DNA of 64,000 bases from the sequence record NC_054913.1; one strand, written 5' to 3'. A program made the position numbers and the translations under genes. Origin of the DNA: Escherichia phage F2. Below the pieces are notes generated by a model. The model ran no database searches. It saw nothing but the letters and a program-made list of their open reading frames with translations, and was not told the DNA's origin. This document shows, piece after piece, positions 26,321 to 59,348 of this stretch; position 1 is the first letter of the stretch, and each line of letters opens with the position of its first letter.

Positions 26321-26328
26321 TATTTATA
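26321..26328 (-). promoter_or_regulatory. T4-type late promoter TATAAATA (minus strand)
   Basis: TATAAATA on minus strand about 45 nt upstream of HNH gene ATG. Confidence 0.35.
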
Positions 26329-26352
26329 TTGCTTTAAACACGGAGATTTATA

Positions 26353-26544: not shown

Positions 26545-26556
26545 GAGAGAAATAAT

Positions 26557-26973: not shown

Positions 26974-27015
26974 TAAATTTGTTATAAACTTTGAATTGTC
27001 TTGAAAGGAAATAAA

Positions 27016-27702: not shown

Positions 27703-27777
27703 GTCAAAGCTTTACGTTTATTGTGATACGATTATGGAGGAGAAATCCTCCAGTTTAATGATAATGAGGAAAATTAC

Positions 27778-28740
27778 ATGATTACTATCAATTCTAAAGA
27801 ACACATTCTAGAACAGAAATATCGTCCTTCTTCCATTGACGAATGTATTCTGCCTGCGTATGACCATGAAACATTCAAGTCTTTAGTATCTAAAGGAAAA
27901 CTTCCTCATATTATTTTGCACTCTCCTTCTCCTGGTACAGGTAAAACAACCGTAGCAAAAGCATTATGTAATGATATCAATGCCGAAATGATGTTCGTCA
28001 ACGGTTCTGATTGTAAGATTGATTTTGTGCGGGGTCCGTTAACCGCATTCGCTCGTTCAGTCTCAATGGAAGGAAAGCCTAAAGTTATTGTTATTGATGA
28101 ATTTGACCGTAGTGGCCTCGCCGAATCACAACGACACCTTCGTACGTTTATGGAAGAATTCTCTAGTAACTGCTCTATTGTTATTACTGCTAACAACATC
28201 GATGGAATTATTGAACCGTTACGTAGTCGTTGTCGAGTTATCGAATTCGGACGTCCAACCGAAGAAGATAAAATCTCTATGATGAAGAAAATGATTCATC
28301 GTATGGTTGAAATCTGTAAGAACGAAAATATCGAAATCGCTGATATGAAAGTTGTTGCAGCTCTGGTTAAAAAGAACTTCCCGGACTTTCGTCGCACAAT
28401 TGGTCAATTAGACCAGTACTCGTCTAAAGGTGTTCTTGATGCGGGTATTTTGTCTATCGTAACTAATGACCGTGGCACAGTCTCTGATGTTATCGAAGCA
28501 ATGAAGAACAAAGATATTAAACAGCTTCGTGCATTAGCTCCAAAATATGCCGCAGATTATTCATGGTTCATCGATAAATTAGTTTCAGAATGTTATGACC
28601 AAGTTGCACCTGGTAAAAGTATTATTTCGCTTTATGAAATTGCAGGCGAAAATAATAAGTTTCATGGATTAGCAAGTAATATTGAATTACATGTTATGTA
28701 TATGCTTCTTCAACTGACCTGCGAACTGACTTGGAAATAA
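27778..28740 (+). CDS. 44: clamp loader large subunit gp44
   Basis: Walker [13 protein letters not shown] box, SRC motif. Confidence 0.95.
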
Positions 28741-28741
28741 T

Positions 28742-29305
28742 ATGAACTTATTCGATGATGACGTCCAGCTTAACGAGCACCAAATTGCATGGAAGTCTAA
28801 TGACGCTGATGCGATTCAAAAATGTGCTGATATGTTTAAAGAAAAACCTGAGAATGAATTCTTTAAAATCATTAATGCTATTAATGAAAAGAAATCTATG
28901 TCAATTGCTCAGGTCGACTACTCAAAATTTATGGTTGAGAACTCATTATCCCAGTTCCCGGAATGTATGCCAGCTGTTTACATGATGAACTTAGTCGGTT
29001 CTGAATTAAGTGATGAAGCGCACTTCAACTATATGATGGCGGCAATTCCGCGTGGTCGTCGATTCTCTAAATGGGCTAAACTAGTCGAAGACACTTCAGA
29101 GTTACTAGTTATCAAACTGTTGATGAAACATTACACAATCAACATGAATGACGCTACCGAGTATAAGCGGCTCCTTGAAAAAAATAACAAGTTGCCAATA
29201 GTCCTTAAAGAACTGAAGGCCATGGTCACTGATGAATTTCTCAAAGAAGTTACCAAAAACGTGAAAGAACAAAAACAATTTAAAAAATTAGCATTGGAAT
29301 GGTAA
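28742..29305 (+). CDS. 62: clamp loader small subunit gp62
   Basis: 187 aa, position after gene 44. Confidence 0.8.
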
Positions 29306-29307
29306 AA

Positions 29308-29676
29308 ATGATTGAAATTAAATTGAAGAACCCTGAAGATTTTCTGAAAGTCAAAGAGACTTTGACCCGTATGGGCATCGCTAATAACAAGGATAAAGTC
29401 CTTTACCAGTCTTGTCATATCCTCCAAAAGCAAGGTAAGTACTATATTGTCCACTTTAAAGAAATGTTGCGTATGGATGGACGTCAGGTTGATATTGATG
29501 GTGAAGACTATCAGCGTCGTGATTCGATTGCTCAGTTGCTTGAAGACTGGGGCTTGATTGTTATTGAAGACTCTGCTCGTGAAGATCTGTTTGGCCTGAC
29601 TAATAACTTCCGTGTTATCTCTTTTAAACAGAAAGATGACTGGACTTTGAAAGCAAAATATACAATTGGTAATTAA
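29308..29676 (+). CDS. regA: translational repressor RegA
   Basis: 122 aa, matches T4 RegA; position before gene 43. Confidence 0.9.
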   Translation: MIEIKLKNPEDFLKVKETLTRMGIANNKDKVLYQSCHILQKQGKYYIVHFKEMLRMDGRQVDIDGEDYQRRDSIAQLLEDWGLIVIEDSAREDLFGLTNNFRVISFKQKDDWTLKAKYTIGN

Positions 29677-29679
29677 AGC

Positions 29680-29703
29680 AATGGGACTTCGGTCCCATTT
29701 GGA
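29680..29703 (+). terminator. terminator hairpin (UUCG tetraloop)
   Basis: atgggacttcggtcccat. Confidence 0.55.
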
Positions 29704-29758
29704 GTATAATAAGTTCCATCAACAAACAAAAGACAATAACTCGTCTAAAGGAAATTAA

Positions 29759-32470
29759 ATGAAAGAATTTTACTTAACGGTTGAACAGATTGGTGATTCA
29801 ATTTTTGAACGTTACATCGATTCTAACGGCCGTGAACGTACTCGTGAAGTAGAATATAAACCATCACTGTTTGCTCATTGTCCGGAAAGTCAGGCTACGA
29901 AATATTTCGATATCTACGGTAAGCCGTGTACTCGTAAGTTGTTCGCTAATATGCGTGATGCCTCACAATGGATTAAACGCATGGAAGATATCGGTCTTGA
30001 AGCACTTGGCATGGACGATTTCAAATTGGCGTATTTGTCTGACACTTATAACTATGAAATCAAATACGACCATACAAAAATTCGTGTGGCTAACTTCGAC
30101 ATCGAAGTAACATCTCCGGATGGGTTCCCTGAGCCATCACAAGCAAAACATCCGATTGATGCTATCACCCATTATGACTCAATTGACGACAGGTTCTACG
30201 TATTTGATCTATTGAATTCTCCATATGGTAATGTAGAAGAATGGTCTATCGAAATTGCGGCTAAGCTTCAAGAACAAGGTGGAGATGAAGTTCCATCTGA
30301 AATTATCGATAAAATCATTTATATGCCGTTCGATAACGAAAAAGAATTGTTGATGGAATATCTCAACTTCTGGCAACAGAAAACTCCTGTCATTTTGACT
30401 GGATGGAACGTTGAGTCATTTGATATTCCATATGTGTATAACCGAATCAAGAATATTTTTGGTGAATCTACTGCGAAACGTTTATCACCACATCGTAAAA
30501 CTCGTGTTAAAGTTATCGAAAACATGTATGGTTCTCGTGAAATCATTACATTGTTCGGTATCTCTGTTCTTGATTACATTGACCTTTACAAAAAATTCTC
30601 TTTTACCAATCAACCGTCATATTCTCTTGATTACATTTCAGAATTTGAATTGAACGTTGGTAAACTGAAATATGACGGCCCTATTTCTAAGCTTCGTGAA
30701 AGCAATCACCAACGATATATTTCTTATAACATTATCGACGTGTATCGTGTATTGCAAATTGATGCTAAGCGTCAGTTCATCAACTTGAGTTTGGACATGG
30801 GTTATTATGCTAAGATACAGATTCAATCTGTTTTTAGCCCAATTAAAACATGGGATGCTATTATTTTTAATAGCCTTAAAGAGCAGAACAAGGTGATTCC
30901 ACAAGGTCGTTCTCACCCGGTTCAACCTTATCCTGGCGCTTTTGTTAAGGAACCTATTCCAAATCGATACAAATATGTAATGAGTTTCGACCTTACATCT
31001 CTGTATCCAAGTATTATTCGCCAAGTGAATATTAGCCCAGAAACAATAGCAGGAACGTTTAAAGTAGCTCCATTGCATGATTATATTAACGCTGTTGCTG
31101 AACGTCCTTCTGATGTGTACAGTTGTTCTCCTAACGGCATGATGTATTATAAAGACCGTGATGGTGTTGTTCCAACTGAAATCACTAAGGTCTTTAATCA
31201 ACGTAAAGAACATAAAGGTTACATGCTTGCAGCTCAACGTAATGGTGAAATAATTAAAGAGGCATTGCATAATCCTAATCTTTCTGTTGACGAACCATTA
31301 GATGTTGATTATCGTTTCGACTTCAGTGATGAGATTAAAGAAAAGATTAAAAAGTTGTCTGCTAAATCTCTTAATGAAATGTTGTTTAGAGCTCAACGTA
31401 CTGAAGTTGCAGGTATGACTGCCCAAATTAACCGTAAATTGCTTATCAACTCACTTTATGGTGCACTTGGCAACGTTTGGTTCCGTTATTATGATTTGCG
31501 TAATGCTACTGCAATCACAACATTTGGTCAAATGGCTTTACAGTGGATTGAACGTAAAGTTAATGAATATCTGAATGAAGTTTGTGGCACAGAAGGTGAA
31601 GCTTTCGTTCTTTATGGTGATACAGACTCTATTTACGTATCTGCTGATAAAATTATCGATAAGGTTGGTGAATCTAAATTCCGTGATACCAACCATTGGG
31701 TAGACTTCTTAGATAAGTTTGCACGTGAACGTATGGAACCAGCTATTGATAGAGGTTTCCGTGAAATGTGTGAATACATGAACAATAAACAACACTTAAT
31801 GTTCATGGACCGAGAAGCTATCGCTGGGCCTCCACTCGGTTCTAAAGGTATTGGTGGATTCTGGACTGGTAAGAAACGTTATGCATTAAACGTGTGGGAT
31901 ATGGAAGGTACTCGTTACGCTGAGCCTAAACTCAAAATCATGGGTCTAGAGACTCAGAAATCTTCGACTCCTAAAGCAGTACAGAAAGCTCTTAAAGAAT
32001 GTATTCGTCGTATGCTTCAAGAAGGTGAAGAATCATTACAAGAATATTTTAAAGAGTTTGAAAAAGAATTCCGTCAATTGAATTATATTAGCATCGCGTC
32101 GGTATCTTCTGCGAATAACATTGCTAAATATGATGTAGGTGGATTCCCTGGTCCCAAATGTCCATTCCATATTCGTGGAATTCTGACGTATAACCGGGCT
32201 ATCAAAGGTAATATCGATGCACCGCAAGTTGTAGAAGGTGAAAAAGTATATGTTCTGCCTTTACGTGAAGGAAACCCATTCGGTGATAAATGTATCGCAT
32301 GGCCTTCTGGTACTGAAATCACAGATTTAATTAAAGACGACGTACTTCATTGGATGGACTACACTGTTCTCCTTGAGAAGACATTTATTAAACCACTTGA
32401 AGGATTCACATCAGCAGCGAAACTCGATTATGAGAAGAAAGCATCTCTGTTCGATATGTTCGATTTTTGA
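29759..32470 (+). CDS. 43: DNA polymerase gp43 (family B)
   Basis: 903 aa; N-terminus MKEFYLTVEQIGDSIFERY and exo/pol motifs (DIE, YGDTDS) match the RB69 polymerase as remembered. Confidence 0.98.
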   Translation: MKEFYLTVEQIGDSIFERYIDSNGRERTREVEYKPSLFAHCPESQATKYFDIYGKPCTRKLFANMRDASQWIKRMEDIGLEALGMDDFKLAYLSDTYNYEIKYDHTKIRVANFDIEVTSPDGFPEPSQAKHPIDAITHYDSIDDRFYVFDLLNSPYGNVEEWSIEIAAKLQEQGGDEVPSEIIDKIIYMPFDNEKELLMEYLNFWQQKTPVILTGWNVESFDIPYVYNRIKNIFGESTAKRLSPHRKTRVKVIENMYGSREIITLFGISVLDYIDLYKKFSFTNQPSYSLDYISEFELNVGKLKYDGPISKLRESNHQRYISYNIIDVYRVLQIDAKRQFINLSLDMGYYAKIQIQSVFSPIKTWDAIIFNSLKEQNKVIPQGRSHPVQPYPGAFVKEPIPNRYKYVMSFDLTSLYPSIIRQVNISPETIAGTFKVAPLHDYINAVAERPSDVYSCSPNGMMYYKDRDGVVPTEITKVFNQRKEHKGYMLAAQRNGEIIKEALHNPNLSVDEPLDVDYRFDFSDEIKEKIKKLSAKSLNEMLFRAQRTEVAGMTAQINRKLLINSLYGALGNVWFRYYDLRNATAITTFGQMALQWIERKVNEYLNEVCGTEGEAFVLYGDTDSIYVSADKIIDKVGESKFRDTNHWVDFLDKFARERMEPAIDRGFREMCEYMNNKQHLMFMDREAIAGPPLGSKGIGGFWTGKKRYALNVWDMEGTRYAEPKLKIMGLETQKSSTPKAVQKALKECIRRMLQEGEESLQEYFKEFEKEFRQLNYISIASVSSANNIAKYDVGGFPGPKCPFHIRGILTYNRAIKGNIDAPQVVEGEKVYVLPLREGNPFGDKCIAWPSGTEITDLIKDDVLHWMDYTVLLEKTFIKPLEGFTSAAKLDYEKKASLFDMFDF

Positions 32471-32510: not shown

Positions 32511-33146
32511 ATGAAAACTACTCCTATTACTATCGCTATTGACGCAATCATAAAACAAGCTTCTTCTTTGGCCGCTATGGCCAAAGTAATTAGTCAAAAC
32601 CCTGCTCGTTATAATGCTATTCTAGAAACTCTTCGACGCCCAGGACTTAGTAATTATGAAAGCCGAGTAATTATTACAGGTGTTGGTAAGAATGCTAATA
32701 TTGCAACTAAAGCTTCTGAGACATTTGCTTCACTCGGTATCCCGAGTATGTACTTGAACACTGGACATTATTCTCACGGTGATGCAGGATTCATTGCGCC
32801 TAATGATGTGTTGATTCATATTAGTCGTTCTGGTAAAACTGAAGAAATGATAGGCGTGGCTAAGCATCTTAAAATGATTCGTCCGAACGTCAAACAGATT
32901 CTGTTGCATTGTAACCCGGACATTCCACAAGAATACGAAGCTCTTTTTGATTATACGTTCTGTACAGGCATCGCAGTAGAGGTTGATGAGAATTCTCTGG
33001 CTCCGACCATGTCCACTACATTGTTGTTAGCGCTTATCGATACGTTTGCTATCAACCTTTCGTCTGAACGTGGATTTACCTCTAATGACTTCCTTAAGTT
33101 CCACCCTGGCGGTGCACTAGGTGCCATGTTACGAGGCGAACAATGA
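32511..33146 (+). CDS. SIS-domain sugar-phosphate isomerase (arabinose-5-phosphate isomerase-like)
   Basis: SIS motifs VIITGVGKNANIATKA and HISRSGKTEE. Confidence 0.75.
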   Translation: MKTTPITIAIDAIIKQASSLAAMAKVISQNPARYNAILETLRRPGLSNYESRVIITGVGKNANIATKASETFASLGIPSMYLNTGHYSHGDAGFIAPNDVLIHISRSGKTEEMIGVAKHLKMIRPNVKQILLHCNPDIPQEYEALFDYTFCTGIAVEVDENSLAPTMSTTLLLALIDTFAINLSSERGFTSNDFLKFHPGGALGAMLRGEQ

Positions 33147-33286
33147 AAGCAATAACAATAGGACTTTTACTATTGATGCTTGTCATGACTATCTACTGGA
33201 GCTTAACGGCTCCAGTAATGATTCCGACTCTTATAATCGGATGGATTATGATTGGACTACAAGCAAAGTATGAATGCTTTAACTAG
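33143..33286 (+). CDS. small hydrophobic protein (47 aa)
   Basis: ATG overlapping upstream stop; two predicted TM segments. Confidence 0.35.
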   Translation: MKAITIGLLLLMLVMTIYWSLTAPVMIPTLIIGWIMIGLQAKYECFN

Positions 33287-33299
33287 AATAGTGTACAAT
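33275..33299 (+). promoter_or_regulatory. T4-type middle promoter
   Basis: TGCTTTA 33275-33281, 12-bp spacer, tacaat 33294-33299. Confidence 0.55.
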
Positions 33300-33327
33300 A
33301 CTCCTACTTACCAATGAGGACCACAAC

Positions 33328-35013
33328 ATGAAAAAAGCTGTTATTCTTGGTGCTGGACTGGCAACTCGTTTGTATCCAATAACGCATCATATTCCTAAGG
33401 TGCTTGTTAACTATAAACAAGACACTATTCTGAGCAATTTGTATACAATTTATTCTGACCTTGGCGCAGATGAAATTATTGTAGTAGTTCATTCAAAATT
33501 TGCTGAAACTGTTCGAGCTTATTGTGAGCAAGAAGGGTTCAATGTGACTATTCGTACAGTTGATGAAGCGTATGGTTCTGCTTATGCTCTTGCTAAATTG
33601 CACAAAGATTTAGACGGCCATAATGTAATTGTTAACTGGTGTGATATTATTCCTGATTTTGGTTCATGGTCTTGGAATGTTAACGCAATCTATGTTAAGG
33701 GTGACGAATGTCGATATAATTTCGACGGTGAAAATATCACTAATGTAGGTTCAACAGGTGGTAATGTTGTAGGAATTTATCAGTTCAAAGACTGGGAATT
33801 CTATATGGGTTCTACTGATGAGGAAATTCATGAATACTGCAAAGGACGTGATTTCGTAGAATTCCTTTACGGCAGCGCATTCAATAAATCAGAGCTTATG
33901 AATCTAATTGATTTAGGTGATATGCCTAAACTTGAAAAAGCTCATGAAGTTCGTGAACTTAATCGTAGTTTTAATGCAGTTGAAATTGGTGAAGAAACTG
34001 TAACTAAATTCGCATTAACCGAACAGGGCCGAGCTCTTCAGAAAGATGAGATTTCATGGTATCTTAAAGTGAAATCAGATTCAGTTCCTCAGTTAGTTTC
34101 TGTTAATGAAAATAACTTTGAAATGGAACGCATTAAAGGTAAGCCGGCATTTGAATATATTAAATCCAAATCAAGTCTTGCTCGTCCACAAATTGTTGAT
34201 GCAATTTTAGATGCACTGAAATTCAGCACAGACACTTATTTTGTAAGTCCTGAAACTGTTCGTCGTGATTTCACTAAAGAATTCTATACTAAAGTTATTG
34301 ATCGTTGTGAAAGTATTCAACCATTGATTGATTCATTTGGTAAAATCACACATGTGAACTACACTAAGATCGGACGTCTGAAGCCAATGTTGAAACAAGC
34401 TTTAGAACACCTTATTCGTTATCATAACCGTTCTCAGGGACAGTACTCTGTTATTCATGGTGACCCGAACTTCAGTAATACTATGATTACTGATAACGGC
34501 GAAGTCAAGTTTATCGACCCTCGTGGATATTTTGGTGAAACCAAGATTTACGGGCCAAAATTGTATGATGAAGCTAAAGTGCTTTACGCTGTTTCAGGTT
34601 ATGATGAATTCAACGCTAATCCGACTTGGGGACAGTTTACTATTGATGAAACAACTTGTAATGTGACTATTAACATCAATCCATTAGTTTACAAATATGG
34701 AAAGATGAGTTCGTTTAACGAGTATCATCATTTGGCAGTGGCAATTATCTGGATTGCATTAGGTGGTTATTTCAAGAATAATCCACTTAAAGCGGTAGCC
34801 GCATATTATAAAGGTATGGAACTTCTGACTAAGCAATTACGTAATATGGGCCGTGTACTTCAAGACGGCTCTATTAGTTATGACGTAGCAGAACCTGTAA
34901 CGGCTACTCTGATTACAAAAAATCCTGGTAAATGGGTACTAACTGATAAAGAAACTGGTGTTTCCTATCGTCCAATCGGTGGCGATATCACTCATCAATG
35001 GGAACGAATCTAA
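33328..35013 (+). CDS. bifunctional sugar-1-phosphate nucleotidyltransferase / sugar kinase
   Basis: N-terminal GAGLATRLYPIT (RmlA-type NTP-transferase signature); C-terminal kinase-like HGDPNFSNTMI...KFIDPRG (APH/choline-kinase-like). Confidence 0.8.
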   Translation: MKKAVILGAGLATRLYPITHHIPKVLVNYKQDTILSNLYTIYSDLGADEIIVVVHSKFAETVRAYCEQEGFNVTIRTVDEAYGSAYALAKLHKDLDGHNVIVNWCDIIPDFGSWSWNVNAIYVKGDECRYNFDGENITNVGSTGGNVVGIYQFKDWEFYMGSTDEEIHEYCKGRDFVEFLYGSAFNKSELMNLIDLGDMPKLEKAHEVRELNRSFNAVEIGEETVTKFALTEQGRALQKDEISWYLKVKSDSVPQLVSVNENNFEMERIKGKPAFEYIKSKSSLARPQIVDAILDALKFSTDTYFVSPETVRRDFTKEFYTKVIDRCESIQPLIDSFGKITHVNYTKIGRLKPMLKQALEHLIRYHNRSQGQYSVIHGDPNFSNTMITDNGEVKFIDPRGYFGETKIYGPKLYDEAKVLYAVSGYDEFNANPTWGQFTIDETTCNVTININPLVYKYGKMSSFNEYHHLAVAIIWIALGGYFKNNPLKAVAAYYKGMELLTKQLRNMGRVLQDGSISYDVAEPVTATLITKNPGKWVLTDKETGVSYRPIGGDITHQWERI

Positions 35014-35399
35014 TGCACCGTGTAGAAAACATGCTTAATCTTTGTTTTGATGTCGACGATTGTATAACAGAGTGGAATAACAATCGTGATTACGTGAACT
35101 TCAAGCCAGACGTCGAAATGGTGACTGCCATTAATGCCCTGTATGATGCAGGGCATACCATAACGCTTTACACTGCTCGCGGTATGAAGTCAGTCGGTCC
35201 TGGTCGTATAGCAATTGACATTCTCCCAAGTCTGATTCAGAACTTGGCAAACATTGGATTGAAGTACCATAATTTGCTAACACATAAACCAGTATATGAT
35301 TGGATTATCGACGACAAAGCTATGCGTCCTGACGAATTCAAAGCTCTTATGAATAAAGGCGAATTCGAAACATTTAAATCATATAAACCGAATCTATAA
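35013..35399 (+). CDS. HAD-superfamily phosphatase
   Basis: Motif I FDVDDCIT; motif II TLYTARG; ATG 35013 overlaps upstream stop. Confidence 0.65.
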   Translation: MHRVENMLNLCFDVDDCITEWNNNRDYVNFKPDVEMVTAINALYDAGHTITLYTARGMKSVGPGRIAIDILPSLIQNLANIGLKYHNLLTHKPVYDWIIDDKAMRPDEFKALMNKGEFETFKSYKPNL

Positions 35400-35446
35400 T
35401 AATTTAAGTAAGACCTGCAAAAACCATCGCATCAATTAACGGCGAG

Positions 35447-36616
35447 ATGCAAAAAATGAATACCTTTAAAATCGGAACGAATTTTGATTTAGCTCTTCTT
35501 GATAAAATCGTAGAGCTCAATAAAACTTATCCTAATAGCTTGATAAACGAAGTATACGGCTCTACAAGAGAAATGGCTTTTGTAGCAGCCAGACCTGATT
35601 TTAGGCTTCCTGACGTTGACAAAAAGATGTTAGAAGATTACGTTAAACGTTGTAACGAATTAGGTATTTGCTTTAACTATACACTCAACACGATAAATCC
35701 TGGTTCAAAAAGAGAACTAGTTGAGTGGAAGAAGAAAGCTATTCAGGACTATGTTCAGTATCTTTGGTCAATAGGCGTATGGCGTATTACTATCGCTAAC
35801 CCTGTTGTTATGGAAATTGTTCGTGAAGTCAATAAAGACATTGAGATTGAAGTTTCAACAATTCTACATGTCGATGCTGTAACTCAAATCAAATACTTGC
35901 ATGACCAATATAATATCAAAAAGGTCTGCTGTGGAATTCATAAGAACCGTTCAGTTTCTTTCCTGAAGCGTGCAGCAGAGTTTTGTAATAAGAACAATAT
36001 AATATTTGAAGTTCTTGTAAATGAGTTCTGTTCTAATGCTGGTAAAGGGTATACAACACATTGTAGCTATCGTGACTCTTGCTATATTTTCCATAGCACC
36101 GATGTTACAGTAGATGATGCCAAATCCTTAAATGGATATCCAATGCAGCACTGTATTAAAGCTCGTGATACAGACCCATTTAACTGGTTGAGAACTCGTT
36201 TTGTTCGTCCTCAAGATTTGAAACTTTATAATGATATTGGTATCACTCAATTCAAAGTTTCAGGACGTACAGGTAGCACCGACTACATTTTGAAAGTTCT
36301 TGAAGCTTACGCTTCTGAAAAGTTTGAAGGTAATTTGTTGGAATTGTGGAAGCCTTTAGAGACCATTTTCACTCTTGAAAATGAGACTGAGTTTTCACAT
36401 ACGGTAAATATTGAAACCTCTTTGTTAGATGGCTTTTTAGAAAAAAGGTGGTTCAAACATCCAGATTTCGATTGTGCTAATGAAATCTGCGGGACGACGT
36501 GTACATATTGTGAAAGATATTATAAACGTCAGTTATCTAAAAATGGGTTATCAGAAAACTCTATATCTATTATTGATATAACTAACTCTGATGACGCTTT
36601 GAGGTACCCAGAATGA
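35447..36616 (+). CDS. hypothetical enzyme, Cys-rich (function unassigned)
   Basis: 389-aa ORF with GGCGAG RBS; C-terminal Cys cluster CANEICGTTCTYCERYY. Confidence 0.55.
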   Translation: MQKMNTFKIGTNFDLALLDKIVELNKTYPNSLINEVYGSTREMAFVAARPDFRLPDVDKKMLEDYVKRCNELGICFNYTLNTINPGSKRELVEWKKKAIQDYVQYLWSIGVWRITIANPVVMEIVREVNKDIEIEVSTILHVDAVTQIKYLHDQYNIKKVCCGIHKNRSVSFLKRAAEFCNKNNIIFEVLVNEFCSNAGKGYTTHCSYRDSCYIFHSTDVTVDDAKSLNGYPMQHCIKARDTDPFNWLRTRFVRPQDLKLYNDIGITQFKVSGRTGSTDYILKVLEAYASEKFEGNLLELWKPLETIFTLENETEFSHTVNIETSLLDGFLEKRWFKHPDFDCANEICGTTCTYCERYYKRQLSKNGLSENSISIIDITNSDDALRYPE

Positions 36617-36762
36617 TTTCTAGAAAAACTTTTAACCACCAACTTAACGAAGAGATTTTGACTATTAAAATTAACAGCAACGAACAAATTCTTAAAAAGG
36701 CCCTTATGGGCCTGTTTGAAACTAAAGCGGCTAAAGTGATTAAAGAACCTGTTCAATTGTAA
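36613..36762 (+). CDS. small hypothetical protein (49 aa)
   Basis: ATG overlapping upstream stop. Confidence 0.3.
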   Translation: MISRKTFNHQLNEEILTIKINSNEQILKKALMGLFETKAAKVIKEPVQL

Positions 36763-36850
36763 TACTACGCTGATGCATTTCTTCATAGTGTTCTTGGAAG
36801 TATCGATGCTGAAGCTTTACGTTATATCAACATCGCTAAGAAATTCAAAT

Positions 36851-36875
36851 AAGCTTTATGAATTGAGTATATAAT
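36851..36875 (+). promoter_or_regulatory. T4-type middle promoter
   Basis: aGCTTTA 36851-36857, 12-bp spacer, tataat 36870-36875. Confidence 0.5.
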
Positions 36876-36894
36876 AAATTGTATTGAGGTAAAC

Positions 36895-37611
36895 ATGGGA
36901 AAACATAACACAATGAAATATATTAAAGCCGCAGATTTTCAATCCGCATTTAAAGCTGTCAATCGTGAAATTTTAGAAAACCCGGAATTCGTTACTGATT
37001 CTCGTATTGGACGTTGTAATGAAATTGGGTCTATGACAGTAGTTGTTGATACCCCTTCATCATTCAAAATGACAGACCCACGTATTAATCGCATCTCTTA
37101 TGAATATGCTGAAGATTTCTGGAAATTTATGATTTCTGGTGGTACTGATGCAGAAGAAGCATTTAAGGCATATCCTAACGTTGCTAAATTTATTTCTAAA
37201 CCTAAATCAGATGCTTTGCCTGCAAACTTCAACACTTTCTACGGTCCACGAATTGCGGCCCAGTTACCAACTCTTCTAAAAGAACTTAAAGAAAAACCTA
37301 ACTCTCGAAGAGTTGTGTTCCAAATTCTAGAAAGTTCTGATCAGGCTTTGCTTGATTCAGACGAAACACTTGAATATCCATGTACTGACTCAGTGACTTA
37401 TTATATTCGTGATGGTAAGCTTTATACCCACTGTCATATGCGTTCTCAGAACTGTGCTGTTGTTATGCAGTTGGATTTTTATCTCCAAGGAAAATTACTT
37501 CATTATATCGCTAACGAATGTGGTGTAGAAGTTGGTGATTATACTCATACCATGGTAAGTGCCCATGTGTTTGAACGTGATTTTGATTATGTTAAAGGAT
37601 TCCTTGTCTAA
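36895..37611 (+). CDS. 42: dCMP hydroxymethylase (thymidylate-synthase fold)
   Basis: Position and conserved pattern NSRR...CTDSVTYYIRD...MRSQN...SAHVFERDF resembling T4 gp42. Confidence 0.7.
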   Translation: MGKHNTMKYIKAADFQSAFKAVNREILENPEFVTDSRIGRCNEIGSMTVVVDTPSSFKMTDPRINRISYEYAEDFWKFMISGGTDAEEAFKAYPNVAKFISKPKSDALPANFNTFYGPRIAAQLPTLLKELKEKPNSRRVVFQILESSDQALLDSDETLEYPCTDSVTYYIRDGKLYTHCHMRSQNCAVVMQLDFYLQGKLLHYIANECGVEVGDYTHTMVSAHVFERDFDYVKGFLV

Positions 37612-38510
37612 TGGCTATTTTCCGCGTACCTATCTTGAGTATGCGGTCTTATGAAACTGGACAGTATGCTATCCTTAAGGATGGCAACTTCCAACTTCAT
37701 TTGCACCGTGCTAATCCGGGTGATGTGATTACATATCCACGTAATGCATCTGATATTAAAGAATGCGAACGTCTTTTCCCAGAATTTAAGTTTGTTCCAT
37801 TATGGTATAAAGATAACGCATATAACACTCGTAAATATTTCTGGTCTGAAAATGAATTTGTGGTTGATTCATTAATTGATTATTATGATTGTGATTTTCT
37901 AATCACAGATATCACTGGATATGACGGCAATTTTGACGTAGAATTCAATTTCAATATCACTGCAGACCCTAATAAACCACGTTTTTATATTGACGAATTC
38001 TTAAAAACCGACATGTTGTCTGTTAATCGTTCACTTCAAACTACTGTGTTGAATGAACGTCAAAAAGAAGTGCTGGTTAACGCAGGTGCAGATGGTAATA
38101 AGATTATCGTAACGCAGAAAGTTATACGTCCTTCCATCATGCAGCGTCTTGTAGGTGATTTGGCTCCTATTCATCTAGATGGTATTTTTCATCCATTTCG
38201 AATTAGTGACCCGTGCTATCGTTTTGAACAAGTGGTTGAATGTGCAATTCAATTAGGTCAACCGCTTTATATAACCGATCCAAATAATAGCTTCGACAGA
38301 AATAAGTATCCTGAAGAAGCGCTGATTCGAATTTTTAAACCAACTAAAACTGAGTACTATCAAATTCTTAAAGGACGTCCGAAGATTCAATACTTCGAAA
38401 ATCCTGAAGAAGTATTCCATCCAGGTCTTGGCGAGTTCATCTACTTTAATGCTTTAATTTCTTCGCCGTATAATATACCTAAATATGAAGATGTCGTAAT
38501 CGAGGAATAA
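37611..38510 (+). CDS. hypothetical protein in beta-gt position (candidate DNA sugar transferase)
   Basis: 299-aa ORF replacing T4 beta-gt between 42 and uvsX; no recognisable beta-gt similarity. Confidence 0.5.
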   Translation: MAIFRVPILSMRSYETGQYAILKDGNFQLHLHRANPGDVITYPRNASDIKECERLFPEFKFVPLWYKDNAYNTRKYFWSENEFVVDSLIDYYDCDFLITDITGYDGNFDVEFNFNITADPNKPRFYIDEFLKTDMLSVNRSLQTTVLNERQKEVLVNAGADGNKIIVTQKVIRPSIMQRLVGDLAPIHLDGIFHPFRISDPCYRFEQVVECAIQLGQPLYITDPNNSFDRNKYPEEALIRIFKPTKTEYYQILKGRPKIQYFENPEEVFHPGLGEFIYFNALISSPYNIPKYEDVVIEE

Positions 38511-38511
38511 A

Positions 38512-39060
38512 ATGGCTAAAATTATTTTAGTAGATGGCCCGGATAATGCTGGTAAAACAACTTTCATTAATGACATAATGGAAATTAGTGAAAGATATGT
38601 AAAGATTGATTTCCCTAAACGAACAGTTGATGGACGTTTCGATGTTAAGTCTCGAAATGAAGTTGGCTGTTTCGAAACGATGTTGAATTATTTAGACCCT
38701 ACTAAGATTTATCTGTTAGACCGTGGATATATTAGTAACTGGGTTTATGGACGTATTCGACAAGATGCGGACTCGGTTCTTGACGTTTATGAACAGGATT
38801 ATGTTCGTCTTTGCCAAAACCATGATGTGTTCACAATTATTTTAACACGTAACGAAATGACTGAAAGTTTTGAAGACGACCTTATTACTTTGTCTTCATT
38901 CAGGTTTAATACAGTCATTTCGTATTTTGAAGAGTTTGCAATTCATAACGAAATCCAAACGTATCAATTACTTAATCATGATGGTGCTAACAAAGTTATA
39001 GGATTTAATGCAAGCGAACGTAATAATTTGATTACAGAAATTATCAAATGGGCTCGTTAA
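38512..39060 (+). CDS. P-loop nucleoside/nucleotide kinase-like protein
   Basis: Walker A VDGPDNAGKTT at N-terminus; 182 aa. Confidence 0.6.
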   Translation: MAKIILVDGPDNAGKTTFINDIMEISERYVKIDFPKRTVDGRFDVKSRNEVGCFETMLNYLDPTKIYLLDRGYISNWVYGRIRQDADSVLDVYEQDYVRLCQNHDVFTIILTRNEMTESFEDDLITLSSFRFNTVISYFEEFAIHNEIQTYQLLNHDGANKVIGFNASERNNLITEIIKWAR

Positions 39061-43415: not shown

Positions 43416-43784
43416 ATGAAAAAATTAATCGCTTTAGCAATGGTATTTGGATTAACCGGATGTGGTGCCCATGGCTTTATCCCTAATAACGTTGGCCAAC
43501 TGATTTACAATCCTAATGTTAAACAGTATGACCAACCTAAAGTTGAAGTGGAAGACCCGGTTACTGTAGGTAATCGAATGATTCAAGCTGATGCCCATGC
43601 TCAACGTTATCGTGACTCTGATACTGTAGCATTGTCAAAAGAACAACGCGTTAAAGAACATTGTCTACAGGCTACTGAAATCGCATTCATTCGCTATGTT
43701 GAAACAACTGGTAAAGAGCCTTCCAAGAAACAAATCGCGAATAACTACGTCCAGTGTATTGAACGTTTAAACAAATTTAATTAA
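43416..43784 (+). CDS. hypothetical lipoprotein
   Basis: Signal peptide with lipobox LTGC. Confidence 0.6.
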   Translation: MKKLIALAMVFGLTGCGAHGFIPNNVGQLIYNPNVKQYDQPKVEVEDPVTVGNRMIQADAHAQRYRDSDTVALSKEQRVKEHCLQATEIAFIRYVETTGKEPSKKQIANNYVQCIERLNKFN

Positions 43785-43844
43785 TTGGTTACACCAAAGT
43801 TAAAATAAGATACTATAAACATAACAAATCAAGAGGAAATTAAC

Positions 43845-47133: not shown

Positions 47134-47655
47134 ATGGCACACTTTAACGAATGTTCACAACTTATTTCTGGTGTTGATAAAGCAGAAGAAGCTTATTTTA
47201 ATGCCCTGATTCACGAAGATAAAGACCCGCTGCAGGTAATGCTTGATATGCAGAAATCTTTACAGGTTCGTCTGGCAAATGACAAGCCTGAACATAACAA
47301 ACATCCTGATGAATTGGCTACTGCTGGTGATGTTGTTGATTGGCTGCGTAATCAGAAAGATTATATTGATGATGAATTCCGTGAACTGCTGACTTCACTT
47401 GGTGGTATGAGCAATGGTGAAAAGGCCGCTAGCTCTGTATGGAAGCCGTGGAAGGCCCAGCATGCTGAATATCGAAATCGTCGTATCGATGAACTGTCTC
47501 CTGAAGACCAGCTTGAAATTAAATTCGAGATGATTGATATTCTGCATTTCGTTCTAAATATGTTCCAAGGTCTAGGACTTTCTGCTGAAGAAATCTTCAA
47601 ACTGTATTACCTGAAAAACCAACACAACTTTGAACGCCAGGATAATGGTTACTAA
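47134..47655 (+). CDS. 56: dCTP pyrophosphatase gp56
   Basis: MAHFNEC...DPLQVMLDMQ...LEIKFEMIDILHFVLNMF matches T4 gp56. Confidence 0.95.
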   Translation: MAHFNECSQLISGVDKAEEAYFNALIHEDKDPLQVMLDMQKSLQVRLANDKPEHNKHPDELATAGDVVDWLRNQKDYIDDEFRELLTSLGGMSNGEKAASSVWKPWKAQHAEYRNRRIDELSPEDQLEIKFEMIDILHFVLNMFQGLGLSAEEIFKLYYLKNQHNFERQDNGY

Positions 47656-58247: not shown

Positions 58248-59348
58248 ATGAAAGTTATGTTTATCCCATCTCGTGCAGTCCCGTTTAATCCTGACCGTGT
58301 ACAAGGTGGCCTTGAAGCAGTACATTTAAATGTGTTGAAATATCTTGTGTCCATCGGCGCTGATATTGATTATATCGGCTTTGATAATGACACGTTTGGT
58401 GATTGGAAAGTTACACACCATCCTGTTGGTCATCTGACTAAATTCAGTCTAGGTATGAGTTATACTATGGCTCGTAAGATTGTTGAACTAGCCGGCATCC
58501 ATGAATACGATTTTGTTGTTACTATGGAACCGACTAAACTAACCGTTCAGGCAATTAAAGACGCAGGTCTCTCTAAAGTTCATAAGAATTTTATGGCAAC
58601 ACCATTTGAACCGGTATCTCGTGGCATTGTTCAAATTTGGGACCAGACTATTCAAATTCATAAGAATGGTGGTAAGAGTTATGCTCCTACTAAAGCCTTC
58701 CGTGAATTTGAACGCAAATATTGTTATATGACTTCAGGTCTGACTGACAAAATTGATTATGATTATTGGCGAGCAAATCCGTTGTTTGAAGCCGAAGATT
58801 ATCCGGTTATTTGTTTGAATGAGAAACCTGAAGTTCTTCCGGCGACTGATCTGATTATTAGTGCACAACGTTATGACACTAAAATGCGTCGCACTGATGT
58901 TGCTCTTGAAGCAATTAAAGCACTAGGCGAAAATGGTGTAGGATACTGTCCAAGCAAATGGGCACCACCAGCTAAATATCCTGTTATTATTGATGCTCCA
59001 CACAGTGAAATCATGGAACGTCTTAAAACAGCTAAAGCACTTATTAATACTTGTCCTGACACAGGTACAGTAGAGAATAGTTCTATTGAAGCCATCTCTA
59101 AAGGTGTCCCTGTAATCCAGTTAGTTTTTAAGGATTATCCTCATGCGACATTTGAATACGACCCAGATACTGTGCGTGTAGAAATTGATTCCTCTACTCC
59201 TAAGAAAGAAGTAGTTGCGCTTTACACAAAAGCTGTATTAGAATTCACTGATACATACGAAGCTCGAGTTAAACGTGCTGAAGCAGTATGGAAGAAGTAT
59301 AACCGAGATGCAGTTGTTGCGATGTGGGATAAAATCTTCACAGCGTAA
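58248..59348 (+). CDS. putative GT-B-fold glycosyltransferase (candidate hmC sugar transferase)
   Basis: N-terminal GT4-like pattern PDRVQGGLEAVHLNVLKYL; 366 aa; located between 39 and rIIA. Confidence 0.55.
   Translation: MKVMFIPSRAVPFNPDRVQGGLEAVHLNVLKYLVSIGADIDYIGFDNDTFGDWKVTHHPVGHLTKFSLGMSYTMARKIVELAGIHEYDFVVTMEPTKLTVQAIKDAGLSKVHKNFMATPFEPVSRGIVQIWDQTIQIHKNGGKSYAPTKAFREFERKYCYMTSGLTDKIDYDYWRANPLFEAEDYPVICLNEKPEVLPATDLIISAQRYDTKMRRTDVALEAIKALGENGVGYCPSKWAPPAKYPVIIDAPHSEIMERLKTAKALINTCPDTGTVENSSIEAISKGVPVIQLVFKDYPHATFEYDPDTVRVEIDSSTPKKEVVALYTKAVLEFTDTYEARVKRAEAVWKKYNRDAVVAMWDKIFTA

What the first reader, a model, noticed from the sequence alone, without database searches (positions are those of the whole stretch)
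32511..38510. Sugar-nucleotide biosynthesis cassette between genes 43 and 42, replacing the T4 imm / beta-gt arrangement
Four adjacent genes encode a SIS sugar-phosphate isomerase (32511-33146), a bifunctional RmlA-type nucleotidyltransferase plus APH-like kinase (33328-35013), a HAD phosphatase (35013-35399) and an unassigned Cys-rich enzyme (35447-36616). They flank dCMP hydroxymethylase (gene 42) and a 299-aa ORF where T4 has beta-gt. The domain set is what is needed to turn a pentose phosphate into a free sugar, re-phosphorylate it at C1 and activate it as an NDP-sugar, i.e. a phage-encoded donor supply for hmC glycosylation with a sugar other than glucose. RB69-type phages are reported to carry arabinosyl-hmC, and gp43 here matches RB69; the enzymology of each step is inference.
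Basis: partly seen in the sequence, partly recalled or inferred. Interest (0 to 1): 0.85.

Follow-up and report, generated by a model that had tools for sequence, protein, structure and literature searches.

The report
Known phage arabinosyl-hydroxycytosine DNA-modification cluster
This is the already published gene cluster with which RB69-type phages replace cytosine in their DNA by arabinose-decorated 5-hydroxycytosine; only one gene in it (a U32-family iron-sulfur enzyme) has no assigned role in the papers I could read, and here it looks like an oxygen-independent second route to the hydroxylated base.

Summary
The ORFs are real and sit at the stated coordinates. The window is a Mosigvirus, 97.7% identical to RB69 across the cassette.

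The cassette is already known. Thomas 2018 proposed it as the UDP-arabinose supply. Lee 2026 characterised it, citing He 2026 and Mahler 2025.

- The acceptor base is 5-hydroxycytosine, not hydroxymethylcytosine.
- "Gene 42" is a flavin/O2-dependent dCMP 5-hydroxylase. It carries the D169N/N177D/L143E signature and is 234/237 identical to PDB 9iqc.
- The sugar goes Ara5P → Ara-1,5-P2 → Ara1P → UDP-Araf, without a free-sugar step.

The 299-aa ORF is a GT-B arabinosyltransferase, and imm has moved rather than been lost.

The "Cys-rich enzyme" is a U32-family protein with no assigned role in the papers I could read.
- It keeps the Glu-Cys-Cys motif of the prephenate-dependent C5-pyrimidine hydroxylases RlhA and TrhP.
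- It is the most conserved protein in the region.
- In 30 unrelated phage lineages with no thymidylate-synthase-type hydroxylase nearby, it sits beside the same glycosyltransferase family (19/30).
- In 4/30 it sits beside a phage DAHP synthase, twice fused to chorismate mutase.

I infer an O2-independent route to 5-hydroxycytosine.

The parts
32511..33146 (+). SIS-domain D-arabinose-5-phosphate isomerase (RB69 gp55 homologue). It converts Ru5P to Ara5P. It has the SIS domain only and lacks the CBS domains of KdsD/GutQ.
   Evidence: PF01380 1.7e-10. KpsF/GutQ 2.2e-32 and KdsD 1.2e-30, covering model positions 47-202 of 328. phrog_5670 2e-116. Role as assigned in PMC13326640.
33328..35013 (+). 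Bifunctional AfhE-type enzyme (RB69 gp53:52). The C-terminal APH-like kinase converts Ara5P to Ara-1,5-P2. The N-terminal nucleotidyltransferase converts Ara1P + UTP to UDP-Araf.
   Evidence: NTP_transferase at residues 3-99, 8.5e-10; weak kinase-family hits at 344-409. phrog_4098 4e-295. It is a single intact 561-aa ORF here, whereas the RB69 GenBank record splits it. Activities are those cited from He 2026 in PMC13326640.
35013..35399 (+). HAD-family phosphatase (RB69 gp51, AfhF-type). It converts Ara-1,5-P2 to Ara1P.
   Evidence: TIGR01689 capsule-biosynthesis phosphatase 4e-13. phrog_1238 1.6e-42. DVDD motif near the N-terminus. Role as described in PMC13326640.
35447..36616 (+). U32-family Fe-S-type protein (RB69 gp50), with no assigned role in the papers I could read. 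Inferred here to be an O2-independent, probably prephenate-dependent, C5 hydroxylase that makes 5-hydroxy-dCMP or 5hoC in DNA.
36613..36762 (+). Truncated homologue of RB69 ORF049c (phrog_8601, unknown function). It is 49 aa here against 79 aa in RB69, because of a GAA-to-TAA change.
36895..37611 (+). Thymidylate-synthase-fold, flavin- and O2-dependent dCMP 5-hydroxylase (5hodCMP synthase, RB69 gp48). It is not a dCMP hydroxymethylase.
   Evidence: PF00303 2.2e-15. ThyA positions N177 to D, L143 to E, D169 to N, W80 to A, W83 to I, with C146 kept; T4 gp42 keeps D169 and W80. 234/237 identical to PDB 9iqc/9ir2. RB69 gp48 activity, 18O2 labelling and FMN binding are reported in PMC13326640.
37611..38510 (+). 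GT-B-fold DNA arabinosyltransferase 1 (RB69 gp47:46, phrog_3891). It puts the first arabinose on 5hoC in DNA.
   Evidence: No Pfam hit. phrog_3891 4e-156. AF2 pLDDT 95.1. Foldseek top hits are the GT-B enzymes MshA 3c4q and 6kih. It is a single intact ORF here. Putative role from PMC13326640.
38512..39060 (+). Thymidylate-kinase-like P-loop nucleotide kinase (RB69 gp45). Presumed to phosphorylate the modified nucleotide.
   Evidence: phrog_761 4e-45. Weak dTMP-kinase hit. Listed as 'nucleotide kinase' in PMC13326640 Table 1. Homologues travel with U32 in 10/30 unrelated lineages.
58248..59348 (+). Second DNA arabinosyltransferase (RB69 ORF003c homologue). It lies outside the finding, between gene 39 and rIIA.1.
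   Evidence: 99% identical to RB69 ORF003c. 835 bits against PDB 9iqz/9ir0, 'phage HY126 glycosyltransferase'.
47134..47655 (+). gp56 dCTPase. It removes dCTP and supplies dCMP to the hydroxylase.
   Evidence: 97% identical to RB69 gp56.

Best explanation
The region is the Mosigvirus (RB69/HY126-type) cluster that replaces cytosine in phage DNA with mono- and di-arabinofuranosyl-5-hydroxycytosine.

Base branch (shown for RB69/HY126 homologues in the literature):
- gp56 dCTPase yields dCMP.
- The thymidylate-synthase-fold enzyme at 36895-37611 hydroxylates dCMP at C5, using a flavin and O2.
- Kinases raise the product to the triphosphate, and the polymerase incorporates it.

Sugar branch (reported for HY126 AfhE/AfhF; inferred here by homology):
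- The SIS isomerase makes Ara5P from Ru5P.
- The kinase half of the 561-aa enzyme makes Ara-1,5-P2.
- The HAD phosphatase removes the 5-phosphate.
- The nucleotidyltransferase half makes UDP-Araf.

Transfer (inferred from fold and homology): the GT-B enzyme at 37611-38510 adds the first arabinose to 5hoC in DNA, and the ORF003c homologue at 58248-59348 adds the second.

My own inference, not shown anywhere I could read: the U32 protein at 35447-36616 is a second, O2-independent, prephenate-dependent C5 hydroxylase. It would let the phage make 5hoC when its facultatively anaerobic host grows without oxygen. This parallels the E. coli pairs TrhO/TrhP and UbiIHF/UbiUV. I put this step at about 0.45-0.5.
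For: Identity of the cluster:
- 97.7% nucleotide identity to RB69 24507-30709, with the same gene order.
- Domains as expected.
- Hydroxylase signature D169N/N177D/L143E.
- 234/237 identity to solved 9iqc.
- GT2 is near-identical to the HY126 glycosyltransferase 9ir0.
- GT1 has a GT-B fold.
- Biochemistry is in PMC13326640, PMC6024577 and PMC13390438.

U32 inference:
- PF01136 hit and U32 fold.
- Profile match to TrhP/RlhA/UbiU/UbiV, E 4e-10. The three residues essential in TrhP and RlhA are conserved (PMC6599085).
- RlhA is required for 5-hydroxycytidine formation in 23S rRNA (annotation; PMC6599085).
- Nine invariant cysteines.
- U32 is the best-conserved protein of the region: 89% against Marfa where gp43 is 70% and AfhE 44%; 80% against Thanatos where gp43 is 65%.
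- In 30 non-Straboviridae phage lineages, the commonest neighbour is the same GT family: 19/30 lineages, directly adjacent to U32 in 8. AfhE follows at 11/30, the kinase at 10/30 and SIS at 8/30. No TS-type hydroxylase is found within 10 kb; the single TS hit is a canonical ThyA.
- 4/30 lineages carry a DAHP synthase next to U32, fused to chorismate mutase in 2 of them. Such genes occur in only 11 of 50,697 phage records.
- The Acinetobacter phage locus examined (Lazarus) has the cassette without U32, Lee 2026 lists no U32 in the DLP3 cluster, and Acinetobacter is not among the named organisms carrying U32, against 57 Acinetobacter-phage records with AfhE and 57 with the TS-type hydroxylase. 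Acinetobacter hosts are strict aerobes (from my own knowledge).
- The phage also encodes anaerobic ribonucleotide reductase NrdD/NrdG.
Against: For the known part:
- Nothing in the sequence argues against it.
- I could not read He 2026 or Mahler 2025 directly.

For the U32 step:
- There is no biochemical evidence.
- Pairwise similarity to the E. coli U32 proteins is insignificant, and the Cys spacing differs from the canonical motif.
- About 40 E. coli phage records (Dhakavirus, e.g. QL01) carry the cassette without U32 although their host is a facultative anaerobe.
- Absence of a TS-type hydroxylase in the metagenomic phages was tested only within 10 kb of U32.
- DAHP synthase next to an A5P isomerase and a KdsC-like phosphatase could instead signal a KDO-like sugar pathway.
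- No U32 protein has yet been shown to be a hydroxylase in vitro (PMC10990095).
- He 2026 may already have tested this gene.
Confidence: 0.85

Rival explanations
1. This is a donor-supply cassette for arabinosyl-hydroxymethylcytosine. Gene 42 makes hmdCMP. The pentose phosphate is dephosphorylated to the free sugar, re-phosphorylated at C1 and activated.
For: It matches the 2018 model (PMC6024577). It also matches the function labels still printed in Table 1 of PMC13326640 ('dephosphorylates Araf5p to Ara'). The domain set is compatible with it.
Against: RB69 and Mosigvirus NP DNA carry arabinose on 5-hydroxycytosine with no methylene bridge (PMC13326640, PMC13390438). The TS homologue has D169N and lacks W80/W83, and is 234/237 identical to the solved 9iqc protein. 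The route reported for HY126 goes through Ara-1,5-bisphosphate (He 2026, as cited).
Confidence: 0.04
2. The U32 protein belongs to the sugar branch, as a reductase, epimerase or other tailoring enzyme acting on the pentose or its nucleotide. Lee 2026 label it 'sugar or heterocycle reductase'. BASEL-collection records label it 'putative enzyme involved in UDP-arabinose biosynthesis'.
For: It lies between the HAD phosphatase and the hydroxylase gene. It co-occurs with AfhE in 11/30 and SIS in 8/30 unrelated lineages. The annotations appear. The TIM-barrel fold is common among sugar enzymes.
Against: The Ru5P to UDP-Araf route is complete without it. Acinetobacter phages (DLP3, Lazarus) carry the cassette without any U32, and DLP3 DNA is arabinosylated; Dhakavirus phages also carry the cassette without it. 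In 8 lineages U32 travels with only the GT and a nucleotide kinase, without AfhE or SIS. Every characterised U32 family member is tied to hydroxylation of an aromatic or pyrimidine ring, not to sugar chemistry (PMC10990095, PMC6599085).
Confidence: 0.15
3. The U32 protein is a redox partner of the TS-type hydroxylase. It would be an Fe-S electron carrier or flavin reductase that keeps the FMN reduced.
For: The hydroxylase needs reduced flavin. In RB69-type and Marfa-type genomes U32 sits directly upstream of it. It has many invariant cysteines.
Against: RB69 gp48 with a kinase makes 5hodC in E. coli without gp50. Acinetobacter and Dhakavirus phages lack U32. U32 is widespread in phages that have no TS-type hydroxylase nearby.
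Confidence: 0.08
4. The U32 protein acts on host or phage RNA as RlhA and TrhP do (ho5C or ho5U in rRNA or tRNA), or is a true peptidase. In either case it is unrelated to the DNA modification.
For: The characterised relatives RlhA and TrhP modify RNA (PMC6599085). Database annotation calls it 'peptidase'.
Against: It lacks the C-terminal regions of TrhP and RlhA (389 aa against 453 and 653). It is tightly and repeatedly linked, often by overlapping genes, to a DNA glycosyltransferase family and to nucleotide kinases, dUTPase and dCMP deaminase.
Confidence: 0.05

Closest known systems
RB69 / HY126 arabinosyl-5-hydroxycytosine cluster (RB69 gp45-gp55 plus ORF003c; HY126 'Afh' genes). Sources: Thomas 2018, Mahler 2025, He 2026, Lee 2026.
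   Same: Same genes in the same order at 97.7% nucleotide identity. The hydroxylase is 234/237 identical to PDB 9iqc. GT2 is near-identical to 9iqz/9ir0.
   Different: - The two ORF pairs that are frameshifted in the RB69 GenBank record are intact here.
- The small ORF049c homologue is cut to 49 aa.
- Otherwise the window is a member of this cluster, not a variant of it.
T4 glucosyl-hydroxymethylcytosine system (gp42 dCMP hydroxymethylase, alpha-gt and beta-gt, host UDP-glucose).
   Same: Same genomic slot between gene 43 and uvsX. Same logic: dCTPase, a TS-fold enzyme that modifies dCMP, then post-replicative glycosylation.
   Different: - The chemistry is hydroxylation by flavin and O2, not folate-dependent hydroxymethylation (PMC13326640).
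- The sugar donor is made by the phage instead of the host.
- The transferase has no sequence match to T4 beta-gt (no Pfam hit).
- imm is moved elsewhere.
Prephenate-dependent U32 hydroxylation proteins of E. coli: RlhA (ho5C2501 in 23S rRNA), TrhP (ho5U34 in tRNA) and UbiU/UbiV (anaerobic ubiquinone).
   Same: Same Pfam family and fold, and the conserved Glu-Cys-Cys motif. RlhA is tied to the same chemical change, C5-hydroxylation of cytosine. Each pairs with an O2-dependent alternative (TrhO; UbiI/H/F), just as gp50 would pair with gp48.
   Different: - Pairwise similarity is insignificant.
- The Cys spacing differs, and there is an extra C-terminal CX4CX3CX2C cluster.
- There is no counterpart of the TrhP/RlhA C-terminal regions.
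- The presumed substrate is a deoxynucleotide or DNA.
- The function is untested.
Acinetobacter phage DLP3 / Lazarusvirus and E. coli Dhakavirus arabinosylation clusters.
   Same: They carry homologous hydroxylase, AfhE, HAD, kinase and GT1 genes.
   Different: They lack the U32 gene. Dhakavirus also lacks the SIS isomerase. DLP3 adds a third arabinose (PMC13326640).

Membership tests
RB69/HY126-type arabinosyl-5-hydroxycytosine modification cluster | TS-fold dCMP 5-hydroxylase with ThyA-numbered D169N, N177D and L143E and the catalytic Cys retained | tested here: met
   Alignment with E. coli ThyA, T4 gp42 and RB69 gp48. 234/237 identity to PDB 9iqc.
RB69/HY126-type arabinosyl-5-hydroxycytosine modification cluster | Bifunctional nucleotidyltransferase plus kinase (AfhE type), with an adjacent HAD phosphatase (AfhF type) and an A5P isomerase | tested here: met
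   Domain hits. Over 99% protein identity to the RB69 homologues. Enzyme activities themselves were not tested here.
RB69/HY126-type arabinosyl-5-hydroxycytosine modification cluster | Two DNA arabinosyltransferases of GT-B fold | tested here: met
   GT1 model has pLDDT 95 and its top Foldseek hits are GT-B enzymes. GT2 is 99% identical to RB69 ORF003c and near-identical to solved 9iqz/9ir0.
RB69/HY126-type arabinosyl-5-hydroxycytosine modification cluster | Virion DNA actually contains ara-5hoC and ara-ara-5hoC | not testable with these tools
   Needs LC-MS or NMR of this phage's DNA. It has been shown for RB69 and for Mosigvirus NP (PMC13326640, PMC13390438).
T4-type glucosyl-hmC system | Folate-dependent dCMP hydroxymethylase (gp42 type: Asp at ThyA position 169, Trp at position 80) | tested here: not met
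   The window protein has N at position 169 and A at position 80. T4 gp42 has D and W.
T4-type glucosyl-hmC system | Alpha- or beta-glucosyltransferase homologue | tested here: not met
   The 299-aa ORF has no Pfam hit and belongs to phrog_3891, not to a T4 gt family. It shares only the general GT-B fold.
U32 prephenate-dependent hydroxylase family (RlhA/TrhP/UbiU/UbiV) | Peptidase_U32 domain and U32 TIM-barrel fold | tested here: met
U32 prephenate-dependent hydroxylase family (RlhA/TrhP/UbiU/UbiV) | Conserved Glu and two Cys that are essential in TrhP (E162, C170, C177) and RlhA (E161, C169, C176) | tested here: met
   hhalign pairs E188, C206 and C212 with them. C206 and C212 are invariant and E188 is at least 90% conserved across 72 family members. 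A plain MAFFT alignment places C195 opposite C170 instead, so the exact register is uncertain.
U32 prephenate-dependent hydroxylase family (RlhA/TrhP/UbiU/UbiV) | Four-cysteine [4Fe-4S] site | tested here: inconclusive
   Invariant core cysteines at 161, 195, 206, 212 and 236, plus a C-terminal CX4CX3CX2C cluster. The spacing differs from UbiU/UbiV, and model coordinates could not be inspected for clustering.
U32 prephenate-dependent hydroxylase family (RlhA/TrhP/UbiU/UbiV) | Dependence on prephenate and independence from O2 | not testable with these tools
   Contextual evidence only. DAHP synthase lies next to U32 in 4/30 phage lineages and is fused to chorismate mutase in 2 of them.
RlhA / TrhP orthologues (RNA hydroxylation) | C-terminal extension beyond the U32 core, as found in TrhP (453 aa) and RlhA (653 aa) | tested here: not met
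   The phage protein ends about 100 residues after the core, and its tail is an unrelated Cys cluster.

The most novel reading that the evidence does not exclude
The U32 protein (35447-36616; RB69 gp50) would be the first U32-family enzyme acting on DNA precursors or on DNA. It would be an O2-independent, prephenate-dependent cytosine C5 hydroxylase.

In Mosigvirus and other phages of Enterobacterales it would back up the flavin/O2-dependent hydroxylase, so that the phage can fully replace cytosine in an anoxic gut host. In many uncultured phages that lack the TS-type enzyme nearby, it would be the only source of the 5-hydroxypyrimidine that their glycosyltransferases decorate. Some of those phages even carry DAHP synthase-chorismate mutase, which would boost the oxygen donor.

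I could not read He 2026 or Mahler 2025, so part of this may already be published.
Probability: 0.45. Interest if true: 0.8.

Novelty: already known. Interest (0 to 1): 0.45.

Why it matters
The cassette as described adds nothing new. It is the RB69/HY126 system, which has already been dissected.

The value lies in the one member whose role is not addressed in the papers I could read. If the U32 protein is an anaerobic dCMP or DNA-cytosine hydroxylase, three things follow:

1. It would explain how a phage that depends on an O2-requiring hydroxylase can still replicate in the anoxic gut.
2. It would extend glycosylated 5-hydroxypyrimidine DNA to many uncultured phages that have no thymidylate-synthase-type hydroxylase near the U32 gene.
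3. It would give the U32 field a small, soluble, highly conserved enzyme with a simple nucleotide substrate. According to PMC10990095, no U32 hydroxylation has yet been reconstituted in vitro.

Tried and rejected
- Pairwise BLAST of the U32 protein against E. coli RlhA, TrhP and UbiU was insignificant. Only profile methods showed the relationship.
- A sequence search of the PDB found nothing for U32, AfhE or GT1.
- The promoter and terminator scan gave counts no higher than shuffled sequence, so it is uninformative.
- The afdb50 fold library was unavailable.
- He 2026 and Mahler 2025 are not held.
- Literature searches linking U32 to phage DNA modification found nothing relevant.
- The Thanatos paper did not test its U32 gene.
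- I considered a clean 'strict aerobe host = no U32' rule. I rejected it as sufficient, because about 40 E. coli phage records (Dhakavirus, e.g. QL01) also lack U32.
- I considered that the DAHP_synth_1 neighbours are KDO8P synthases. I judged this less likely: DAHP synthase models score 221-237 bits against 61-67 for KDO8P synthase in the two unfused proteins (131-163 against 47-53 in the two fused ones), and two of the proteins are fused to chorismate mutase. I have not excluded it.
- A human-faecal contig with a DAHPS-CM homologue (L068) shows no U32. The gene sits at the cut end of the contig, so this is uninformative.
- Rfam found no group I intron in the nrdD insertion at gathering threshold.

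Full report
**1. Observation**

- SIS protein, 32511-33146: PF01380 1.7e-10; KpsF/GutQ 2e-32; KdsD 1e-30, SIS domain only.
- 561-aa protein, 33328-35013: NTP_transferase domain at residues 3-99, plus weak kinase-family hits at 344-409.
- 128-aa protein, 35013-35399: related to HAD capsule-biosynthesis phosphatases (TIGR01689 4e-13), with a DVDD motif near its N-terminus.
- 389-aa 'Cys-rich enzyme', 35447-36616: Peptidase_U32, PF01136 6.4e-11, above Pfam's cut-off.
- Downstream: a thymidylate-synthase-fold ORF (36895-37611), a 299-aa ORF (37611-38510) and a P-loop kinase (38512-39060).

GC content is even across the block, at 0.32-0.39.

**2. What genome this is**

The 6.2-kb block is 98.0-98.7% identical to many Escherichia and Shigella Mosigvirus genomes, and 97.7% identical to RB69 24507-30709, with the same gene order.

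T4 has 43 - imm.1 - imm - 42 - b-gt - segA - uvsX in this slot, so the synteny comparison is correct. However, imm and imm.1 are not lost. They lie at 43416-44093.

The RB69 GenBank record splits two genes by frameshift (ORF053c/052c and ORF047c/046c). Both are single intact ORFs here. This agrees with the published view that the RB69 splits are sequencing errors (PMC6024577 section 3.4; PMC13326640).

**3. What is already known**

- Thomas et al. 2018 (PMC6024577) found arabinose on RB69 DNA. They proposed ORF055c and ORF53_52c as the UDP-arabinose supply and ORF003c as the transferase.
- Lee et al. 2026 (PMC13326640) showed by MS and NMR that the sugar is attached directly to 5-hydroxycytosine.
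- They also showed that RB69 gp48 (the TS homologue) makes 5-hydroxy-dCMP from dCMP. The oxygen comes from O2 (18O2 labelling) and the enzyme binds FMN.
- Citing He et al. 2026 on phage HY126, they state that the bifunctional AfhE phosphorylates Ara5P to Ara-1,5-P2, that the HAD enzyme AfhF removes the 5-phosphate, and that the AfhE N-terminal domain makes UDP-arabinofuranose.
- A further Mosigvirus, NP, has the same bases (PMC13390438).

**4. Tests of membership here**

- In an alignment with E. coli ThyA and T4 gp42, the window's TS homologue keeps the catalytic Cys146. It has N177D, L143E and D169N, the signature Lee et al. give for 5hodCMP synthases.
- It replaces the folate-site residues W80 and W83 with A and I. 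T4 gp42 keeps D169 and W80.
- It is 234/237 identical to solved structures 9iqc/9ir2.
- The ORF003c homologue at 58248-59348 is near-identical to 9iqz/9ir0, 'phage HY126 glycosyltransferase'. HY126 is therefore a close relative of this phage.
- The 299-aa protein has no Pfam hit, but it models confidently (pLDDT 95.1) as a GT-B glycosyltransferase. Its top hits are MshA 3c4q and 6kih, as Lee et al. reported for RB69 gp46:47.
- The dCTPase gp56 is at 47134-47655.

The cassette is thus a member of a published, partly reconstituted system.

**5. The unassigned gene**

Lee et al. list RB69 gp50 only in a table, as 'sugar or heterocycle reductase', and never discuss it. BASEL-collection records call it a 'putative enzyme involved in UDP-arabinose biosynthesis'. 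The Thanatos paper did not test its homologue. Three full-text searches found no paper linking U32 proteins to phage DNA modification.

The characterised U32 proteins are all tied to O2-independent, prephenate-dependent hydroxylation (PMC6599085, PMC10990095):
- RlhA is required for 5-hydroxycytidine at position 2501 of 23S rRNA.
- TrhP is required for 5-hydroxyuridine in tRNA.
- UbiU and UbiV hydroxylate ubiquinone precursors.

Each has an O2-dependent counterpart (TrhO; the flavin monooxygenases UbiI/H/F).

**6. Evidence gathered on the phage U32 protein**

(a) Family and fold.
- Pairwise BLAST to the E. coli paralogues is insignificant.
- A 72-member profile matches a TrhP/RlhA/UbiU/UbiV profile at 96.7% probability, E 4e-10, over 211 columns.
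- That match aligns E188, C206 and C212 with TrhP E162, C170 and C177, the residues shown to be essential in TrhP and RlhA (PMC6599085).
- The AlphaFold model is confident (pLDDT 92.6, pTM 0.91).
- Nine cysteines are invariant across the family (161, 195, 206, 212, 236, 343, 348, 352, 355) and C180 is 98% conserved. The last four invariant ones form a C-terminal CX4CX3CX2C cluster.
- The protein lacks the C-terminal regions of TrhP and RlhA.

(b) Constraint. Percent protein identity to the window:

| Phage | gp43 | UvsX | U32 | Hydroxylase | GT1 | HAD | AfhE | Kinase |
|---|---|---|---|---|---|---|---|---|
| Klebsiella phage Marfa | 70 | 88 | 89 | 79 | 70 | 66 | 44 | 37 |
| Shewanella phage Thanatos-2 | 65 | 68 | 80 | 71 | 48 | 62 | 54 | 43 |

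U32 is the best-conserved protein in the region.

(c) Distribution in cultured phages.
- The TS-type hydroxylase is in 341 records: Escherichia 175, Acinetobacter 57 and others.
- U32 is in 220 records, all at 80% identity or more. Every host named in the output is from Enterobacterales or is Shewanella, which are facultative anaerobes by my own knowledge. Acinetobacter is not among the ten organisms named.
- The Lazarus locus (Acinetobacter) and the DLP3 cluster have the cassette without U32.
- E. coli Dhakavirus phages such as QL01 also lack it, so the correlation with host oxygen use is only partial.

(d) Context outside Straboviridae.
- Homologues at 44-58% identity are numerous in metagenomic phage contigs.
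- I pooled 8 loci from exact-protein look-ups with 32 non-Straboviridae loci from IMG/VR. They collapse to 30 lineages at 90% or less U32 identity.
- The most frequent neighbour is the phrog_3891 family, which is the family of the window's GT1. It occurs in 19/30 lineages at a median offset of -979 bp. In 8 lineages it ends within 100 bp of the U32 start, often overlapping it.
- AfhE homologues occur in 11/30, thymidylate-kinase-like kinases in 10/30 and SIS in 8/30.
- dUTPase/DCD, dCMP deaminase and TAGT-type transferases also recur.
- I searched called ORFs and all six frames with an HMM built from 5hodCMP synthases, T4 gp42 and ThyA. It found no TS-fold protein in any of these loci except one canonical ThyA, which has N177, D169, L143, W80 and W83.
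- All 15 Straboviridae-type loci carry both U32 and the TS-type hydroxylase.

(e) Link to prephenate.
- In 4/30 lineages a DAHP_synth_1 protein lies within two genes of U32.
- For the two unfused proteins (L010, L031), NCBIfam scores them as 3-deoxy-7-phosphoheptulonate synthase (E 2e-65 to 3e-70; 221-237 bits). KDO8P synthase models reach only 1e-16 to 3e-17 (61-67 bits).
- The two fused proteins (L043, L045) score 4e-38 to 1e-47 as DAHP synthase, against about 1e-12 to 1e-14 for KDO8P synthase.
- In those 2 lineages the protein is fused to a C-terminal chorismate mutase type II domain (CM_2 5e-20 and 8e-18).
- Chorismate mutase makes prephenate.
- Homologues of this protein occur in only 11 of 50,697 phage records, mostly short unverified contigs.

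(f) Plausibility. The window also encodes the anaerobic ribonucleotide reductase NrdD/NrdG. The phage is therefore equipped to replicate without oxygen, a condition under which an O2-dependent hydroxylase could not supply its only cytosine substitute.

**7. Interpretation and caveats**

The simplest reading of 6(a)-(f) is as follows. The U32 protein makes the C5 hydroxyl on the pyrimidine without O2. It would be the sole hydroxylase in many uncultured phages, and a second, anaerobic route in Mosigvirus and its relatives.

Co-occurrence with nucleotide kinases, dCMP deaminase and dUTPase suggests that it acts on the mononucleotide. Action on DNA is not excluded.

This is inference only. The main weaknesses are:
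- The TS-type enzyme's absence was tested only within 10 kb of U32.
- Dhakavirus phages of E. coli lack U32.
- The DAHP synthase sometimes sits with an A5P isomerase and a KdsC-like phosphatase, which could point to a KDO-like sugar instead.
- The Cys register differs between alignment methods.
- No U32 protein has yet been shown to hydroxylate anything in vitro (PMC10990095).
- I could not read He 2026 or Mahler 2025, which may have addressed this gene.

I put the hypothesis at about 0.45-0.5. The rival roles are a sugar-tailoring enzyme (0.15), a redox partner of gp48 (0.08), and an RNA hydroxylase or protease (0.05).

**8. Verdict**

The finding as stated is already known. I score it moderately rather than low only because the cluster contains one gene whose role is not addressed in the papers I could read. 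For that gene, the comparative evidence assembled here gives a specific, cheaply testable and potentially important hypothesis.

Noticed in passing
window 36613-36762: The homologue of RB69 ORF049c (phrog_8601, unknown function; it overlaps the U32 stop codon) is cut to 49 aa by a GAA-to-TAA change. RB69 has 79 aa. Thanatos-2 also has a small ORF directly after its U32 gene (L003 10134-10391).
   Followed up: partly
window 12813-15675: [quoted passage not shown] The insertion carries a 256-aa ORF (13599-14369) with a GIY-YIG-like 'DIYIGY' motif. RB69 has an uninterrupted 605-aa nrdD. From memory this resembles the T4 nrdD (sunY) group I intron with I-TevII. Rfam found no intron at gathering threshold.
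   Followed up: partly
window 43416-44093: imm and imm.1 lie between genes 43 and 42 in T4. Here, as in RB69, they sit about 5-6 kb downstream of the cassette, between the genes corresponding to RB69 gp61.4 and sp.
   Followed up: yes
window 33328-35013 and 37611-38510, compared with L001 3930-5616 and 8213-9113: Both genes that are split by frameshifts in the RB69 GenBank record are single intact ORFs in this window. This supports the published view that the RB69 splits are sequencing errors.
   Followed up: yes
L013 7474-15179 (Logan SRR33454321 contig, 60.9 kb): In this uncultured phage, U32 is preceded by a phrog_3891 glycosyltransferase that overlaps it. It is followed by a TAGT-like transferase, a dUTPase/DCD protein and a UDP-galactopyranose mutase, and no TS-fold gene is present. 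This looks like a hexofuranosyl 5-hydroxypyrimidine DNA modification with U32 as the only candidate hydroxylase.
   Followed up: partly
L043 8411-9430; L045 7302-8354; L044 9-968; L010 9145-9888; L031 9384-10127: Phage-encoded DAHP synthases lie next to the U32 gene in four lineages. In two of them (three of these five loci) the enzyme is fused to a C-terminal chorismate mutase domain. From memory, that architecture is known in Prevotella and Porphyromonas enzymes, which would suggest anaerobic Bacteroidota hosts. Shikimate-pathway genes are otherwise almost absent from phage genomes (11 of 50,697 records).
   Followed up: partly
L009 and L011 (contigs of 466 kb and 60 kb): In these phages, which use a DNA polymerase III alpha-type replicase, U32 directly follows a dCMP deaminase and lies near a thymidylate-kinase-like gene and UDG-family proteins. 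No phrog_3891 transferase is present. The substrate there might be a uracil rather than a cytosine nucleotide.
   Followed up: no
L005 (Escherichia phage QL01, Dhakavirus) and L002 (Klebsiella phage Marfa): Cassette composition varies among relatives. QL01 lacks both the SIS isomerase and U32. Marfa lacks SIS but keeps U32 directly upstream of the hydroxylase. Phages without SIS presumably rely on host KdsD/GutQ for Ara5P.
   Followed up: partly
PMC12838424 compared with L003 7534-8436: The Thanatos paper assigns UDP-xylose pyrophosphorylase activity to TH1_063. That protein is the homologue of the GT-B transferase modelled here (48% identity to the window's 299-aa protein). The paper found no activity for the AfhE homologue TH1_060. 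These assignments are the reverse of what fold and the RB69/HY126 work suggest.
   Followed up: no
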